64,000 nt of DNA from Escherichia phage 215Ecol030PP. A program made the translations under genes and the position numbers. Below the pieces are notes generated by a model. The model saw only the letters and a program-made list of their open reading frames with translations. It was not told where the DNA came from and ran no database searches. The stretch lies in sequence record PP328843.1. One strand, given 5' to 3'. Positions 2,067-41,546 of the stretch are shown one piece after another. How positions within the stretch are numbered: the stretch's first letter is position 1; the number at the start of each line of letters is the position of its first letter.

Positions 2067-2125
2067 TTTATCCCTCCAAGTAACTGTGAATATACTATCA
2101 CAGTTTTAGGAGAAAGTAAACAACT

Positions 2126-6161: not shown

Positions 6162-6294
6162 CGTTTTGTGAAAAATTTTTTAAAAAGTTTTGGGGGAATT
6201 CTAGGGCAGGGAGGGGCAATTAAAGGATAGGATAATATATTATAAAGGATAGAAACTAAATGATGCCTAGAGAGGCCCGGAAAGGCCTAGATAC

Positions 6295-6322
6295 CAAAAA
6301 GCCCCAACCTTTTGGTCGGGGC
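6295..6322 (-). terminator. intrinsic terminator (GCCCC-stem hairpin plus U-run on minus strand) after gene 6331-6804
   Basis: hairpin GCCCCAACC...GGTCGGGGC followed by T5 on minus strand. Confidence 0.55.
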
Positions 6323-6330
6323 TAAGAATG

Positions 6331-6804
6331 TTATTTGATTTGTTTAGCAGACCAAATGCGGTCTTTAATAATTTTTTGGATGTCTTCAACATACTCAAGA
6401 GAGTGAACATGTGGATTATCTTTGAAACTATAAGCACGGGCTAACTTTTGGCCTTCGGTTTTGATTACTAAAAGCTCTTTAAGGATAGCTTCATATTTGG
6501 AGATAATTCCTTTAACAATATTTTTCTCTTGTGTGACTTTAGGATCTGCTTTAGGAGCAGGTTTACCTGAAGCCTTTGCAAAAGCAGCTCCAGTAGCAAC
6601 TAAACTTTTCCAAGCCATACTAACTGCATTCCCTGTAAATCCTTCGGCTTTCATATCACGAGCAAATTGGAATCGTGATTCATCGGAAGCATCTTTATAG
6701 GAATATTTACCCGCGGCAATGGCAGCTTTTGCAACAGCTTGAATTTCAGTGCTAGATGCTTCATTTAACACCGCTTCATTTAAAAATTGAGTATATGATT
6801 TCAT
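6331..6804 (-). CDS. internal-protein-like protein with capsid-targeting-sequence-like N-terminus MKSYTQFLNE (157 aa)
   Basis: ORF track 6331..6981 begins with TTG inside upstream tRNA-like element; ATG at 6804 has SD AGGAAA; late promoter TATAAATA upstream. Confidence 0.6.
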   Translation of the reverse strand: MKSYTQFLNEAVLNEASSTEIQAVAKAAIAAGKYSYKDASDESRFQFARDMKAEGFTGNAVSMAWKSLVATGAAFAKASGKPAPKADPKVTQEKNIVKGIISKYEAILKELLVIKTEGQKLARAYSFKDNPHVHSLEYVEDIQKIIKDRIWSAKQIK

Positions 6805-6842: not shown

Positions 6843-6850
6843 TATTTATA
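6843..6850 (-). promoter_or_regulatory. late promoter TATAAATA upstream of IP-like gene 6331-6804
   Basis: exact motif on minus strand between terminator hairpin and SD. Confidence 0.5.
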
Positions 6851-6852
6851 CT

Positions 6853-6879
6853 AAAAAGCCCCAACCTTTCGGTCGGGGC
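6853..6879 (-). terminator. intrinsic terminator at 3' end of the tRNA/small-RNA transcription unit
   Basis: near-duplicate of the 6295-6322 hairpin, T-run on minus strand. Confidence 0.55.
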
Positions 6880-7196
6880 TAAGCCTTGCGGCAACCTTGT
6901 CGGGGTTCCACCTGCTAAGGCAAGTGTTTGTACGAAACGCCGGGATTCGAACCCGGTTATTAAGCAGTTGACGCTACTCAATATTTTTAAAAGGCCATAT
7001 CTCGACCATATCCGAACGTTCCGTCAAAAACGCTACTCGGCTTATGGCAAAGATATTTCCTCGAATCGATAATTCGGTGCGCCGTTTCTGCTGTGATATA
7101 AGGGGGCATTAACAAAACATAAAGATTTATTAATGCCAGTCCTTAAACAGGGAACATCAGTCCGACGACTTGCCGGTAGCGACCCGGCTTCTTGTC

Positions 7197-7728: not shown

Positions 7729-8214
7729 TTATTTTATGTAATATTTATTTAAAAACTTTCTAGCTTGAGTATGGCTAACATTTATAGCGTTTGCATAATT
7801 TTTAATAAAACCTCGTTCATCCATATTAAAATTTTCTAATATTTTTAATCGTCTAGTTATCTCATCTTGACTTAAGGTACTTGCATTATTTTTAGAAATT
7901 TTTTCTAAGGACTGTGCCGAGTGTTTTCGACCATTAAAATTAAAATTTTTAGATTTTGGAGGAAATCTAGCATTTAATCTCGCATCTTTTGTATTTTGAT
8001 TATTAGTTGCGCAATATATGTTATTTAATGAATATGGTCCTTTATCGCCGAAACGGCACATGCAGTATTCATGACCCTTTCTTCCACGCTTATCATAATT
8101 TCCCGTTGATTTCCACCAATGCAGCCATTCATCAAAAGTTAAATTCCATTCAATGTTTCTACGTATAGCAGAATTCCGCTGAGAAATATATTTTGCATAA
8201 TCTTCTTTCATCAC
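7729..8214 (-). CDS. putative HNH-family homing endonuclease embedded in the tRNA cluster (161 aa, GTG start)
   Basis: motif GHEYCMCRFGDKGPYSLNNIYCATNNQN resembles HNH core; basic C-terminal DNA-binding-like tail. Confidence 0.5.
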   Translation of the reverse strand: MMKEDYAKYISQRNSAIRRNIEWNLTFDEWLHWWKSTGNYDKRGRKGHEYCMCRFGDKGPYSLNNIYCATNNQNTKDARLNARFPPKSKNFNFNGRKHSAQSLEKISKNNASTLSQDEITRRLKILENFNMDERGFIKNYANAINVSHTQARKFLNKYYIK

Positions 8215-9061: not shown

Positions 9062-9460
9062 TCAGCCTTCATCAACAATAGTGTGAGTATTAGCATTTAC
9101 GATTTGCCACCAATCAAAGCGATTAGAATCCATCGGTTTGTTTTCATTTTCTTTGATAATGTCACGGAGTTCATCTTCAGAGAATGCTTTAGCAATTAAA
9201 TCGGTATACCCACCACGGGGATAATAATTATCACCTGCAAACAAAAGGAAATTTACCTTCCCGGAAGCAACATATGCTTCCTTAGGATACTTGTTTCCTG
9301 CGTGGTCAACCACTTCAATATAACGGTAAGGAATATCGGTTCTTTCAACCCATTGCCATGCCGCCGCAGGGGAATCGAAAGCATCTACACCTAAACGATT
9401 ATCTTCATCTTTAGACGGATTATTTTCGTAATCCGCATATACATAATATTCAACGTTCAT
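9062..9460 (-). CDS. hypothetical protein (132 aa)
   Basis: ORF track. Confidence 0.5.
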   Translation of the reverse strand: MNVEYYVYADYENNPSKDEDNRLGVDAFDSPAAAWQWVERTDIPYRYIEVVDHAGNKYPKEAYVASGKVNFLLFAGDNYYPRGGYTDLIAKAFSEDELRDIIKENENKPMDSNRFDWWQIVNANTHTIVDEG

Positions 9461-9648
9461 TATTCACCTTTAGAAATTTTATCCATAACAATAGCAATTA
9501 AACCAATTAAAAATGCTACTACAAGTGAAAAAACATTTTCTGCCGTAGTCAATAATCCGCATATAAATCCAACAAACATTGAAAAACTGAAAGCGGAAGC
9601 AGAAATTGCAATAGCAACATTTCGAATTAATTCACAACGTTTCATTTT
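9460..9648 (-). CDS. small membrane protein (62 aa from MKRCEL, 2 hydrophobic segments)
   Basis: ORF track 9460..9786 trimmed to Met with SD GAGGAG; upstream part is the promoter element. Confidence 0.5.
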   Translation of the reverse strand, partial: KMKRCELIRNVAIAISASAFSFSMFVGFICGLLTTAENVFSLVVAFLIGLIAIVMDKISKGE

Positions 9649-9673
9649 ATTCTCCTCAGTAGTAGATAGGGTA

Positions 9674-9703
9674 ATAGTATCACTACCCCATCTAAAAGTA
9701 AAC
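9674..9703 (-). promoter_or_regulatory. early-promoter-like element GTTTAC-N18-TACTAT, copy C
   Basis: repeated element with overlapping inverted repeat. Confidence 0.45.
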
Positions 9704-9937
9704 TTATTTTTTACGAAAAATTGATTTATTTTCTGCTGCCCATTTTTCAATAACTGCAGCAGGACCAGTAACAACAATTTTATCACCGTAATCTTCTGCG
9801 GCGAGTTGACCGAAATTATCTAATGCATCACGAAGAACTCCATGAGGCATTTCACCCATTTTATCTTTCTTGCCAGTGTAAATAAACTCAACTTTTACAT
9901 CAGCAGTTTCAGCAATAAATTCTTGGTAAGTTTTCAT
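9704..9937 (-). CDS. internal protein with canonical capsid targeting sequence MKTYQEFIAE (77 aa)
   Basis: N-terminus identical to T4 IP-type CTS; own promoter element upstream. Confidence 0.7.
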   Translation of the reverse strand: MKTYQEFIAETADVKVEFIYTGKKDKMGEMPHGVLRDALDNFGQLAAEDYGDKIVVTGPAAVIEKWAAENKSIFRKK

Positions 9938-9971
9938 TTTGATTTCCATTTGGTTTTGTTTTGATAGGGTA

Positions 9972-10001
9972 ATAGTATCACAACTAAAACCCTATGTAAA
10001 C
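9972..10001 (-). promoter_or_regulatory. early-promoter-like element GTTTAC-N18-TACTAT, copy B
   Basis: repeated element with overlapping inverted repeat. Confidence 0.45.
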
Positions 10002-10013
10002 AACTTTGTGAAA

Positions 10014-10271
10014 TTATTTTAAATCTTCTAATCGTTTCTTCATCTTAGAGCCATTTTTAGCAATTTCTCCTGCATCGGAGCATAATGCTAAAAGTGCTTT
10101 AACTTTAGTTTGGTCTCCTTTAAAAGATGAAGGATCGACCGCAGCAGCAAGTTCTTTAATACGAGAGAAAAGACGCTCAGCTTCAGCTAAAGCCATTCCA
10201 AGCTTTACTTCCATACCGTGGGAAGATTCAGTGATAGTAGTTTTTGTAGCAAACTCTTTGAAAGTTTTCAT
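10014..10271 (-). CDS. internal-protein-like protein, CTS-like N-terminus MKTFKEFATKTTITE (85 aa)
   Basis: ORF track; SD AGGAAA; own promoter element upstream. Confidence 0.6.
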   Translation of the reverse strand: MKTFKEFATKTTITESSHGMEVKLGMALAEAERLFSRIKELAAAVDPSSFKGDQTKVKALLALCSDAGEIAKNGSKMKKRLEDLK

Positions 10272-10302
10272 TTTTATTTTCCTAATTAATTTTGATGAGG
10301 TA

Positions 10303-10332
10303 ATAGTATCACTACCTCATCAGTATGTAAAC
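10303..10332 (-). promoter_or_regulatory. early-promoter-like element GTTTAC-N18-TACTAT, copy A
   Basis: repeated element with overlapping inverted repeat GATGAGGTA/TACCTCATC. Confidence 0.45.
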
Positions 10333-10344
10333 AACTTTGTGAAA

Positions 10345-11029
<685 letters not shown>

Positions 11030-11030
<1 letters not shown>

Positions 11031-11743
11031 TATAGTACCTTTAGTGTATTTTTAATTTTAGAAAAAAGTTCTTCAAGAGAACCATCGTTTGTAATTACTA
11101 AATCGCCATCACGAATTGGCAATCCAGCTTCTGTAATATGAGTATCATTGGATTTTTGACCAGAACGAACTACATGAATTACTGTAGCACCCATCGCCCT
11201 AGCCGCATCCATTTCATGATCTTGACGAGTATCAGGAACGATATAATAATCATAACCTGAGTTAAATTTATCAAGATAATCTAAAGCAAATAATTTTACC
11301 CAATACATGCGGTCGAAGTTATTAACAATCAAATCCGTACCTAGGGCTTGCATCAGACGACGGACTGACCATTGATCTTCAATATTATTTATAACGTCAG
11401 TAATCTTATTAAATGCTACGAAATTAACTGCGTCATCAAAAACAAACACACCCTTAATTGGGCTTTTACCGTTAAGATAGCAAAATGCTTGTTCCATAAT
11501 CGTGATTACTTCTGATTTAGTCAGATTTAAATTAGTCTCACGATCATAGTCAATTCCTTCAAACTCTTTACGAGTTAAGCAAGGATAGTCAGTGTTTGCT
11601 GCAAATACTCCCCATGCATAAGCCAATGCATCCTTAATAGGACCAGCAAGTTGGTATTTAACTGCAGAATAATTGCTCATGATAAAATCAGCAGTAGTAT
11701 CTTTTCCACTACGCTTTACGCCGCTTAAAAAGATTAGTTTCAT
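11030..11743 (-). CDS. 1: deoxynucleoside monophosphate kinase gp1 (241 aa from MKLIFLSG)
   Basis: near-identity to T4 gp1; Walker A GVKRSGKDT. Confidence 0.93.
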
Positions 11744-39643: not shown

Positions 39644-40068
39644 TGCTTCTGATCCCTGAAACTCATGAATTAGTTCTCGAGAATGTCGAAGCACTTATTC
39701 CTGAAGCACAGGGTCGCTTTGACGAATTGTCTTCTGCTTTAAATAAAGACGATATAAATACAATTGTCGAGAATATGCTTGATGATGAAACTGATTTAGC
39801 GGTTGCATTAGCTTCTATTAATGAAAATATGCCGTTAAATGAATTTATCGTTAAACATGTTTCTGCCCGTGGTGAAATTACTCGCACTAAAGATCGCAAA
39901 ACCCGCGAACGTAATGCATTTCAAACTACCGGGTTGTCTAAAGCAAAACGTAGACAAATTGCTCGTAAAGCTACCAAAACGAAGATTGCCAATCCAGCAG
40001 GTCAATCTCGTGCTCAGCGTAAGCGTAAAAAAGCTCTTAAACGCCGTAAAGCATTAGGATTAAGCTAA
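39643..40068 (+). CDS. 68: prohead core protein gp68
   Basis: length/synteny. Confidence 0.9.
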
Positions 40069-40706
40069 TGAATGAACCCCAATTACTAATTGAAACTTGG
40101 GGTCAACCTGGCGAAATTATTGATGGCGTACCAATGCTTGAATCTCATGATGGAAAAGACTTAGGTTTAAAACCGGGTTTATACATCGAAGGAATATTCA
40201 TGCAAGCGGAAGTCGTCAATAGAAATAAACGTCTTTATCCAAAACGTATATTAGAAAAAGCGGTAAAAGACTATATTAATGAGCAAGTTTTAACTAAACA
40301 AGCTCTCGGAGAATTAAATCATCCTCCACGCGCTAATGTTGACCCGATGCAAGCCGCTATCATTATAGAAGATATGTGGTGGAAAGGAAATGACGTATAC
40401 GGACGAGCTCGTGTTATTGAAGGTGACCATGGTCCTGGAGATAAATTAGCAGCTAATATTCGTGCCGGATGGATTCCAGGAGTTTCTTCTCGTGGATTAG
40501 GTTCATTGACTGACACAAATAAAGGTTATCGTATCGTAAACGAAGGATTCAAATTAACTGTAGGTGTTGATGCAGTATGGGGTCCAAGTGCTCCAGATGC
40601 ATGGGTAACTCCTAAGGAAATTACCGAATCACAGACGGCGGAAGCCGATACAAGTGCCGATGACGCCTATATGGCTCTCGCAGAGGCCATGAAAAAAGCG
40701 TTATAA
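40068..40706 (+). CDS. 21: prohead core protease gp21 (212 aa)
   Basis: length/synteny. Confidence 0.93.
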   Translation: MNEPQLLIETWGQPGEIIDGVPMLESHDGKDLGLKPGLYIEGIFMQAEVVNRNKRLYPKRILEKAVKDYINEQVLTKQALGELNHPPRANVDPMQAAIIIEDMWWKGNDVYGRARVIEGDHGPGDKLAANIRAGWIPGVSSRGLGSLTDTNKGYRIVNEGFKLTVGVDAVWGPSAPDAWVTPKEITESQTAEADTSADDAYMALAEAMKKAL

Positions 40707-40736: not shown

Positions 40737-41546
40737 ATGCTTAAAGAACAACTGATTGCCGAAGCGCAGAAAATTGATGCTTCCGTTGCTCTTGATAGTA
40801 TTTTCGAATCAGTTAATATTTCTCCGGAAGCAAAAGAAACTTTCGGCACTGTATTCGAAGCTACCGTCAAGCAGCACGCCGTTAAATTAGCTGAATCTCA
40901 TATCGCTAAAATTGCTGAAAAAGCAGAAGAAGAAGTAGAAAAAAATAAAGAAGAAGCAGAAGAAAAAGCTGAGAAGAAAATCGCTGAGCAAGCTTCTAAA
41001 TTCCTTGACCATCTTGCAAAAGAATGGCTCACTGAAAATAAATTAGCAGTAGATAAAGGTATCAAAGCCGAACTGTTTGAATCCATGCTTGGTGGATTGA
41101 AAGAGCTCTTTGTTGAACACAACGTTGTTGTTCCAGAAGAATCAGTTGATGTTGTAGCTGAAATGGAAGAAGAGCTGCAAGAACATAAAGAAGAATCAGC
41201 TCGTCTGTTCGAAGAACTCAATAAGCGTGACGCATATATCAATTATGTGCAGCGTGAAGTGGCATTGAGCGAAAGTACTAAAGATCTGACTGAGTCTCAA
41301 AAAGAAAAAGTCTCTGCTCTGGTCGAAGGTATGGATTATTCAGATGCATTCTCAAGTAAATTGAGTGCAATCGTAGAAATGGTGAAGAAATCTAATAAAG
41401 ATGAAAGCACTATTACTGAGAGTATAAATACTCCTGATACTGAAGCAGCCGGACTGAATTTCGTCACTGAAGCTGTAGAAGATAAAGCTGCACCTGGTGC
41501 AGAAGATATTGTAAGTGTATATGCGAAAGTCGCATCTCGTTTCTAA
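40737..41546 (+). CDS. 22: prohead core scaffold gp22 (269 aa)
   Basis: acidic coiled-coil; length/synteny. Confidence 0.93.
   Translation: MLKEQLIAEAQKIDASVALDSIFESVNISPEAKETFGTVFEATVKQHAVKLAESHIAKIAEKAEEEVEKNKEEAEEKAEKKIAEQASKFLDHLAKEWLTENKLAVDKGIKAELFESMLGGLKELFVEHNVVVPEESVDVVAEMEEELQEHKEESARLFEELNKRDAYINYVQREVALSESTKDLTESQKEKVSALVEGMDYSDAFSSKLSAIVEMVKKSNKDESTITESINTPDTEAAGLNFVTEAVEDKAAPGAEDIVSVYAKVASRF

What the first reader, a model, noticed from the sequence alone, without database searches (positions are those of the whole stretch)
9460..10344. Internal-protein cassette: three tandem promoter-hairpin-gene units, two with capsid-targeting N-termini
Upstream of acb1/57B there are three unit-length modules, each a GTTTAC-N18-TACTAT element with an inverted repeat, an SD, and a small gene. 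Two products start with the internal-protein capsid targeting sequence (MKTYQEFIAE exact; MKTFKEFATKTTITE variant with an I-x-E cleavage context) and the third is a 62-aa two-TM membrane protein. In T4 this position holds ipI, whose product is injected with the DNA and inhibits the GmrSD restriction system; the locus is known to be hypervariable. These divergent, probably packaged proteins are strong candidates for uncharacterised injected anti-defence effectors.
Basis: partly seen in the sequence, partly recalled or inferred. Interest (0 to 1): 0.65.

Follow-up and report, generated by a model that had tools for sequence, protein, structure and literature searches.

The report
Known T-even ip5/ip6 internal-protein cassette
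This stretch of a T4-like phage genome carries two already named genes (ip5 and ip6) for small proteins that are probably packed into the phage head and injected with the DNA. Each gene sits behind a repeated promoter-hairpin unit of a kind described in 1994 and again in 2010-2014, so the arrangement is ordinary, although what the two proteins target is still unknown.

Summary
On the minus strand, downstream of 57B/acb1, there are three promoter-hairpin-SD-gene units. Two products carry T4 capsid-targeting leaders: MKTYQEFIAE, identical to T4 IPII/IPIII, and MKTFKEFATKTTITE, of the IPI type.

It is not new. The region is 99.5-99.8% identical to the best-matching of 204 sequenced Tequatroviruses with the same arrangement. 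There the genes are annotated ip5 and ip6 (ipV/ipVI in Yersinia phage PST). Ip5 is 100% identical to the RB15 Ip5 record deposited with the 1994 description of this hyperplastic IP locus.

The third gene is not an internal protein. It is trna.4 (61 aa, not 62), 100% identical to T4 Trna.4, and forms the conserved flank.

[quoted passage not shown] T4's ipI-trna.4 spacer is an exact chimera of two of the window's units, as PeSL-mediated cassette exchange predicts.

The mature Ip5 model is a helical hairpin and the mature Ip6 model is ferredoxin-like. Neither resembles IPI*, IPII* or IPIII*. Their targets remain unknown. A 2025 study tested ip4-10 against a GmrSD panel and found no reproducible inhibition.

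Verdict: already known, low interest. In passing, an unannotated 157-aa ORF at 6331-6804 has a CTS-like leader and a late promoter.

The parts
10345..10803 (-). 57B/acb1, the conserved left flank of the IP locus
   Evidence: Pfam Acb1 3.4e-60. Annotated 57B in fFiEco06, PST and T4.
10272..10344 (-). PeSL unit 1: early-type promoter (TTTACA 10331-10326, TACTAT 10308-10303), hairpin 10293-10322, SD AGGA
   Evidence: Identical to the T4 57B-ipI spacer.
10014..10271 (-). ip5, 85 aa. The leader is codons 1-15 (10227-10271), MKTFKEFATKTTITE, with predicted gp21 cleavage after E15 to give a 70-aa mature protein of pI 9.2.
   Evidence: PHROG 3499 1.2e-49. 100% identical to RB15 Ip5 and PST IpV. I-T-E-S invariant in homologues. 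AF2 model has two long helices.
9938..10013 (-). PeSL unit 2: promoter 10000-9972, interrupted hairpin 9956-10003, weak SD GGA
   Evidence: Its left part equals the left part of the T4 ipI-trna.4 spacer.
9704..9937 (-). ip6, 77 aa. The leader is codons 1-10 (9908-9937), MKTYQEFIAE, with predicted cleavage after E10 to give a 67-aa mature protein of pI 6.5.
   Evidence: PHROG 8111 1.2e-52. Annotated ip6/ipVI. Leader identical to T4 IPII/IPIII. AF2 pLDDT 82, beta-alpha-beta-beta-alpha-beta.
9646..9703 (-). PeSL unit 3: promoter 9702-9674, hairpin 9663-9694, SD GAGGAG
   Evidence: Its right part equals the right part of the T4 ipI-trna.4 spacer.
9460..9645 (-). trna.4, a 61-aa predicted two-TM membrane protein. 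It is the conserved right flank and not an internal protein.
   Evidence: 100% identical to T4 Trna.4. PHROG 1692. Hydropathy. T4 annotation 'predicted membrane protein'.
40068..40703 (+). Gene 21 prohead protease. It acts in trans and would remove the Ip5/Ip6 leaders.
   Evidence: tblastn 99.5% identity to T4 gp21. The gp22 scaffold at 40737-41543 is 98% identical.

Best explanation
The region is the 57B-trna.4 internal-protein hyperplastic locus of a T2/PST-like Tequatrovirus. It carries the known alleles ip5 and ip6 in place of T4 ipI, followed by the conserved membrane-protein gene trna.4.

Each gene is preceded by a PeSL. This is a T4 early-type sigma-70 promoter (TTTACW-N17-TACTAT) whose -10 element lies inside a 13-14 bp hairpin.

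Shown:
- Gene identity.
- The leaders.
- The repeats and hairpins.
- The chimeric relation of T4's joint to the window's joints.

Inferred from T4 biology:
- The genes are transcribed early and the proteins accumulate until head assembly.
- The N-terminal capsid-targeting sequence docks pre-Ip5 and pre-Ip6 into the gp22 scaffolding core.
- gp21 cleaves after ITE15 (Ip5) and IAE10 (Ip6).
- The roughly 7.5-kDa mature proteins stay in the head and are injected with the DNA.

Inferred by analogy only: once in the cell they bind and block a host defence nuclease, as IPI*, Ip2 and Ip3 each block one GmrSD variant. The target is unknown.

The PeSLs also serve as short portable homologies. Through them, ip cassettes are inserted, deleted and exchanged between phages.
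For: Identity and annotation:
- 99.5-99.8% nucleotide identity over 1.9 kb to the best-matching of 204 phage genomes that cover at least 80% of the query.
- Annotated ip5/ip6/Trna.4 there.
- PHROG 3499, 8111 and 1692.

Leaders:
- The Ip6 leader is identical to that of T4 IPII/IPIII.
- The Ip5 leader aligns with the IPI leader.
- Residues 4 and 7 (targeting) and 8 and 10 (processing), and the L/I-x-E rule, are described in PMC9026906.
- The cleavage context is invariant across homologues.
- gp21 and gp22 in the window are 99.5% and 98% identical to T4's.

PeSLs:
- Promoters and hairpins.
- They match the published PST/T4 consensus TTTACW-N17-TAYWAT.
- Hairpins of unrelated stem sequence but the same -10-in-loop layout occur at the T4 ipIII, ipII and denV joints and at the window's e-denV joint.
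- There is one compensatory A-U to G-C change between units 1 and 3 (sequence).

Exchange:
- The T4 57B-ipI spacer is identical to unit 1, and the T4 ipI-trna.4 spacer equals the left of unit 2 plus the right of unit 3.
- RB15 has five such cores around ip5-ip9-ip7-ip8.
- The last five codons and stop of ip5 repeat the 57B 3' end (repeat D1, 86% over 71 nt).

Timing: in T4 omics, ipI, ipII and ipIII are 'early RNA, late protein'.

Analogy: Ip1, Ip2 and Ip3 each inhibit a distinct GmrSD.
Against: - There is no virion proteomics or injection evidence for Ip5 or Ip6 in the literature I could search.
- ip4-10 gave no reproducible inhibition of the GmrSD variants tested.
- Mature Ip5 and Ip6 share no sequence with IPI*, IPII* or IPIII*.
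- Mature Ip6 is not basic (pI 6.5), unlike the classical IPs.
- The hairpins lack a following U-run, and the terminator scan found none, so a terminator role is not evident from sequence.
Confidence: 0.85

Rival explanations
1. Ip5 and Ip6 are packaged but act inside the head or during ejection, for example in charge neutralisation, DNA condensation or priming of ejection. On this reading they have no host defence target.
For: The classical IPs are abundant, basic and bind DNA at low salt (PMC9026906). Mature Ip5 is basic with pI 9.2. ip4-10 showed no reproducible GmrSD inhibition.
Against: All three T4 IPs that have been resolved turned out to be specific GmrSD inhibitors. The locus is hypervariable in gene content between near-identical phages, which is typical of arms-race genes rather than housekeeping head components. 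Mature Ip6 is near-neutral with pI 6.5.
Confidence: 0.2
2. The proteins are not packaged. They are ordinary early cytoplasmic accessory proteins, and the leader is carried along only because its DNA is part of the recombination homology shared by the cassettes.
For: The promoters are of the early type. The leader-coding DNA belongs to a direct repeat between ip5 and ip6, 77% over 44 nt (D2).
Against: The Ip6 leader is residue-for-residue the 10-aa sequence shown to be sufficient for capsid targeting and processing. The I/L-x-E site is kept even where the leader length changes, as in MQTYQTFITE|SSHG in P0004. T4 ipI uses the identical promoter unit and is packaged. T4 IPs are early-RNA, late-protein.
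Confidence: 0.06
3. The promoter-hairpin repeats are purely regulatory, one early promoter and attenuator per gene. Their similarity reflects selection on promoter function, not a role as recombination joints.
For: -35 and -10 elements are constrained anyway. Promoter and terminator activity of PeSLs was shown experimentally in RB49/phi1.
Against: Identity extends well beyond the hexamers: a 14-mer core exact in three copies, a 71-nt family, and extension into the 3' coding ends of 57B and ip5. T4's ipI-trna.4 joint is an exact left/right chimera of two window joints. PeSL-to-PeSL mini-circles were demonstrated for RB49/phi1.
Confidence: 0.15

Closest known systems
[not shown]
   Same: Ip5 is 100% identical to the RB15 and PST copies, and the best Ip6 matches are also 100% identical. 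The position between 57B and trna.4, the leaders and the flanking promoter-hairpin units are all the same.
   Different: Nothing of substance. This window is one more copy of a common allele combination: 204 records carry the whole arrangement.
T4 IPI / IPI* (GmrSD inhibitor) at the same locus
   Same: Same genomic slot and an identical upstream PeSL. The leader is related, with an ITE cleavage site. The mature protein is small, 70 aa against 76 aa, and basic.
   Different: The mature sequences are unrelated. No GmrSD target is known, and the panel test of ip4-10 was negative.
T4 IPII and IPIII (inhibitors of GmrSD-ECOR21 and GmrSD-ECOR17)
   Same: Ip6 has exactly their 10-aa CTS, MKTYQEFIAE.
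   Different: The mature domains are unrelated. IPII and IPIII sit in the e-denV locus, which is empty in this phage.
PeSL (promoter-early stem-loop) mobile regulatory cassettes (Arbiol 2010, PMC2839356; Comeau 2014, PMC4122927)
   Same: An early promoter plus a stem-loop overlapping the -10 element, occupying the whole spacer from stop codon to SD. They are clustered in a hyperplastic region and lie next to indels between close relatives. They match the PST/T4 consensus.
   Different: No G-run/C-run stems as in RB49/phi1. Activity was not measured here.

Membership tests
T4-type internal proteins (CTS-bearing, head-packaged, injected) | N-terminal capsid-targeting sequence, with an aromatic residue at position 4 and Phe at position 7 | tested here: met
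   Ip6 MKTYQEFIAE is identical to T4 IPII/IPIII. Ip5 MKTFKEF... aligns with the IPI leader. The residue roles come from PMC9026906.
T4-type internal proteins (CTS-bearing, head-packaged, injected) | gp21 cleavage motif L/I-x-E at the end of the leader | tested here: met
   IAE10 in Ip6 and ITE15 in Ip5. I8 and E10 (Ip6) and I13-T14-E15 (Ip5) are invariant in the homologue alignments.
T4-type internal proteins (CTS-bearing, head-packaged, injected) | Encoded in one of the two IP hyperplastic loci (57B-trna.4 or e-denV) | tested here: met
T4-type internal proteins (CTS-bearing, head-packaged, injected) | The same genome encodes the cognate prohead protease and scaffold | tested here: met
   gp21 99.5% and gp22 98% identical to T4.
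T4-type internal proteins (CTS-bearing, head-packaged, injected) | Physically present in virions in processed form and ejected into the host | not testable with these tools
   No proteomic report for Ip5 or Ip6 was found in the searchable literature.
PeSL regulatory cassettes | Sigma-70-like early promoter fitting TTTACW-N17-TAYWAT (PST/T4 type) | tested here: met
   Three sites. Consensus from PMC4122927.
PeSL regulatory cassettes | Stable stem-loop within or overlapping the promoter | tested here: met
   dG -17.4 to -18.2 kcal/mol, z -3.9 to -4.3. The same layout with other stem sequences occurs at four further joints.
PeSL regulatory cassettes | Located at indel or replacement boundaries between close relatives | tested here: met
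   The T4 joint is a chimera of window units 2 and 3. RB15 has five cores around four ip genes.
PeSL regulatory cassettes | Measured promoter and terminator/attenuator activity | not testable with these tools
   Indirect only. T4 ipI, which has the identical unit, is early at RNA level. No U-run terminator was found by scan.
IPI*-like GmrSD inhibitors | Sequence or fold relationship of the mature domain to IPI*, Ip2 or Ip3 | tested here: not met
   [not shown]
IPI*-like GmrSD inhibitors | Inhibits a GmrSD-type type IV restriction enzyme | not testable with these tools
   Published panel test of ip4-10 found no reproducible inhibition.

The most novel reading that the evidence does not exclude
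Ip5 (helical hairpin) and/or Ip6 (ferredoxin-like) are injected inhibitors of a host defence that is not among the GmrSD clades tested so far. Candidates are another modified-DNA-dependent nuclease or glycosylase, or a system unrelated to restriction. That would extend the 'one Ip, one defence variant' rule beyond Ip1-3.
Probability: 0.4. Interest if true: 0.45.

Novelty: already known. Interest (0 to 1): 0.15.

Why it matters
As a genome feature it adds nothing. The genes, their leaders, the locus polymorphism and the promoter-hairpin joints are all in the literature and in database annotation.

Its residual value is practical. Ip5 and Ip6 are common, present in about 245-270 sequenced phages. 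They are probably injected, and they still have no target at a time when Ip1-3 have all been resolved as specific GmrSD inhibitors. They are therefore reasonable candidates for anti-defence screens and matter for predicting the host range of therapeutic T4-like phages.

The window also gives a clean example of a chimeric PeSL joint that supports cassette exchange.

Tried and rejected
- Pfam gave nothing above threshold for Ip5, Ip6 or Trna.4.
- PDB sequence search gave no meaningful hit.
- Foldseek against viral models found only Ip6 relatives for Ip6 and nothing significant for Ip5.
- The exhaustive HMMER search with Ip6 returned a 6899-aa and a 491-aa protein with many matched stretches. On inspection these are a low-complexity Ala/Lys/Asp repeat protein and an NHL-repeat protein. 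I rejected them as repeat-inflated chance matches.
- I considered that the hairpins are intrinsic terminators. No U-run follows them and the scan found none, so I call them attenuator or structure elements only on the strength of the PeSL papers.
- I looked for a late promoter directly upstream of ip5 and ip6 and found none. The nearest minus-strand TATAAATA is inside gene 1 at 11386-11393. T4 omics shows the IPs are early-RNA, late-protein, so a late promoter is not required.
- Repoila et al. 1994 itself (PMC395341) is not held. Its content is cited through later papers and its GenBank record.

Full report
**What is there**

The genes in 9460-10344 lie on the minus strand. In the direction of transcription the order is:
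- 57B/acb1, 10345-10803 (Pfam Acb1, 3.4e-60)
- an 85-aa ORF, 10014-10271
- a 77-aa ORF, 9704-9937
- a 61-aa ORF, 9460-9645
- trna.3, trna.2 and a cluster of ten tRNA genes

Each of the three spacers contains GTTTAC-N18-TACTAT, which is equivalent to TTTAC(A/T)-N17-TACTAT. The core GTGATACTATTACC occurs exactly three times in the 64 kb window, only at these sites. The shuffle test, which allows up to 2 mismatches, found 6 matches (3 exact, 3 with 2 mismatches) against a mean of 0.38, and no shuffle reached 6. The units form a 71-nt direct-repeat family.

Each unit folds into a hairpin that places the -10 hexamer in its loop and 3' arm. dG is -17.4 to -18.2 kcal/mol and z is about -4.
- The third protein is 61 aa, not 62.
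- The units are downstream of 57B in transcriptional terms.

**Identity**

The 1.9-kb stretch matches 772 phage records, and 204 of them cover at least 80% of it. The 30 best-matching of these are 99.5-99.8% identical: Escherichia, Yersinia and Salmonella Tequatroviruses such as EC101, fFiEco06, fPS-65 and the PYps phages.

- In fFiEco06 the genes are annotated ip5, ip6 and Trna.4.
- In Yersinia phage PST they are ipV, ipVI and tRNA.4.
- PHROGs places the two proteins in 'internal head protein' (phrog_3499, 1.2e-49) and 'internal virion protein' (phrog_8111, 1.2e-52).
- That record belongs to the 1994 description of T-even genomic polymorphism. Later papers cite it for 'at least 10' Ip proteins recognised by their signal sequence and for the original observation of shuffling within the IP locus.
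- The 61-aa protein is 100% identical to T4 Trna.4, annotated as a predicted membrane protein. Hydropathy shows two hydrophobic segments.

T4 has 57B-ipI-trna.4 at this place. In this phage ipI is replaced by ip5 plus ip6, and trna.4 is the conserved flank rather than a third cassette gene.

**The leaders**

Ip6 begins MKTYQEFIAE, exactly the first ten residues of T4 IPII and IPIII. According to the review of Black's work:
- These ten residues are sufficient for incorporation into the head.
- Residues 4 and 7 matter for targeting, and residues 8 and 10 for processing.
- gp21 cleaves after Glu in L/I-x-E.

Ip5 begins MKTFKEFATKTTITE|S and aligns with the longer IPI leader MKTFKEFTSTTTPVSTITE|A. 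In the few homologues that exist, the ITE-SSHG and IxE contexts are invariant even where leader length differs. The window also encodes a gp21 protease 99.5% identical and a gp22 scaffold 98% identical to T4's.

Packaging, processing to proteins of about 7.5 kDa (70 aa, pI 9.2; 67 aa, pI 6.5) and injection are therefore well-founded inferences. They are not shown. I found no virion proteomics for Ip5 or Ip6.

**The repeated units**

They fit the published PeSL elements:
- an early sigma-70-like promoter with an AT-rich upstream region;
- a stem-loop, most often between the boxes or overlapping the -10;
- an SD and start codon at the 3' end;
- clustering in hyperplastic regions next to indels.

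The consensus given for the PST/T4 pair is TTTACW-N17-TAYWAT.

The layout, rather than the stem sequence, is conserved. The T4 e-ipIII, ipIII-ipII and ipII-denV joints and the window's own e-denV joint all fold with the -10 in the loop but with unrelated stems. Units 1 and 3 differ by one compensatory pair (sequence). None is followed by a U-run.

Evidence for exchange comes from three comparisons:
- T4's 57B-ipI spacer is identical to unit 1. T4's ipI-trna.4 spacer equals the left part of unit 2 joined to the right part of unit 3 within the shared core.
- RB15 has five such cores around four ip genes.
- The repeat upstream of ip6 extends into the last five codons and the stop of ip5, which copy the 3' end of 57B. 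This is the footprint expected if a cassette integrated by a single crossover.

In T4 time-resolved omics, ipI, ipII and ipIII are classed 'early RNA, late protein' and trna.4 RNA is early. Early promoters in front of head-internal proteins are therefore the norm.

**Function**

Mature Ip5 and Ip6 show no sequence similarity to IPI*, IPII*, IPIII* or RB15 Ip7-9 and no PDB sequence relatives.

- Ip5 is modelled as two long helices at pLDDT 71, with no significant viral match.
- An exhaustive HMMER search with Ip6 found only T4-like phage relatives plus two repeat-inflated artefacts.
- Ip5 has a paralogue, 54% identical in the mature part, with a different leader (MKTYSEFLSE) in the e-denV locus of other Tequatroviruses. 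Leaders and mature domains are thus themselves reassorted between the two loci.

The only functional guide is analogy. Ip1, Ip2 and Ip3 of T4 each inhibit one GmrSD variant without cross-protection. However, ip4-10 tested against further active GmrSD variants gave no reproducible inhibition. My best reading is that Ip5 and Ip6 are injected, stoichiometric inhibitors of host defence proteins not yet identified, with a probability of about 0.4-0.5. The main rival is a role inside the head or in ejection.

**Verdict**

But the genes, the leaders, the hypervariable locus and the promoter-hairpin joints are already described and annotated. Novelty: already known. Interest is low. What remains is the open question of the Ip5 and Ip6 targets.

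**Seen in passing**

- **The second IP locus is empty.** denV (1650-2066) and e (2126-2620) are adjacent, with a single PeSL between them.
- **A 157-aa ORF at 6331-6804 (-) has a CTS-like leader.**
  - It starts MKSYTQFLNE|AVLNE|A, with Tyr4, Phe7, Leu8 and Glu10.
  - A terminator hairpin and the T4 late-promoter box TATAAATA lie just upstream.
  - Homologues in Mosigvirus and Jiaodavirus keep a leader of this kind (MKSYAEFLTE, MKFKEFLIE) and the upstream layout.
  - It is 'hypothetical protein' in every annotated record listed of 511 matches, and has no Pfam or named PHROG family.
  - It is absent from T4, where the site is a clean indel flanked by a 36-nt repeat.
  - It looks like an unrecognised internal-protein candidate outside the two classical loci.
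- **A 161-aa ORF of unknown family interrupts the tRNA cluster** at 7729-8214.

Noticed in passing
window 6331-6804 (-), upstream elements to 6883: 157-aa ORF starting MKSYTQFLNE|AVLNE|ASS, a capsid-targeting-like leader (Y4, F7, L8, E10). A GC hairpin with T-run and the T4 late-promoter box TATAAATA (6843-6850) lie just upstream. Homologues in Mosigvirus (MKSYAEFLTE) and Jiaodavirus (MKFKEFLIE) keep the leader. It is 'hypothetical protein' in every annotated record listed of 511 matching phage records. It is absent from T4, where the roughly 520-bp segment is an indel flanked by a 36-nt direct repeat (6291-6326 / 6848-6883). It is a possible unrecognised internal protein.
   Followed up: partly
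window 2067-2125 (between denV 1650-2066 and e 2126-2620, - strand): The second classical IP locus, which holds ipII and ipIII in T4, is empty here. A single promoter-hairpin unit joins e to denV. Ip5 and Ip6 are thus the only classical-type IP genes in these two loci.
   Followed up: partly
window 7729-8214 (-): 161-aa ORF (phrog_16521, unknown function, no Pfam hit) inserted in the tRNA cluster between tRNA-Met and tRNA-Ser. Compared with fFiEco06, the cluster here has an extra tRNA-His and lacks tRNA-Thr. T4 has the segB homing endonuclease elsewhere in the cluster.
   Followed up: partly
window 10014-10029 and 10345-10360 (-): The last five codons plus stop of ip5 (E-D-L-K-stop) are a near-exact copy of the 3' end of 57B (D-D-L-K-stop). 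The inter-cassette repeat therefore reaches into coding sequence. This looks like the footprint of cassette integration by a single crossover.
   Followed up: partly
L008 1201-1482 (Escherichia phage HMD-9, e-denV locus): A paralogue of Ip5, 54% identical in the mature part, with a different leader (MKTYSEFLSE) sits next to the lysozyme gene in about 228 other phages. This shows that leaders and mature domains reassort between the two IP loci.
   Followed up: partly
window 11386-11393 (-), inside gene 1: This is the nearest T4 late-promoter box (TATAAATA) upstream of 57A-57B-ip5-ip6 on the coding strand. It could give late read-through transcription of the IP genes if the hairpins do not terminate.
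   Followed up: no
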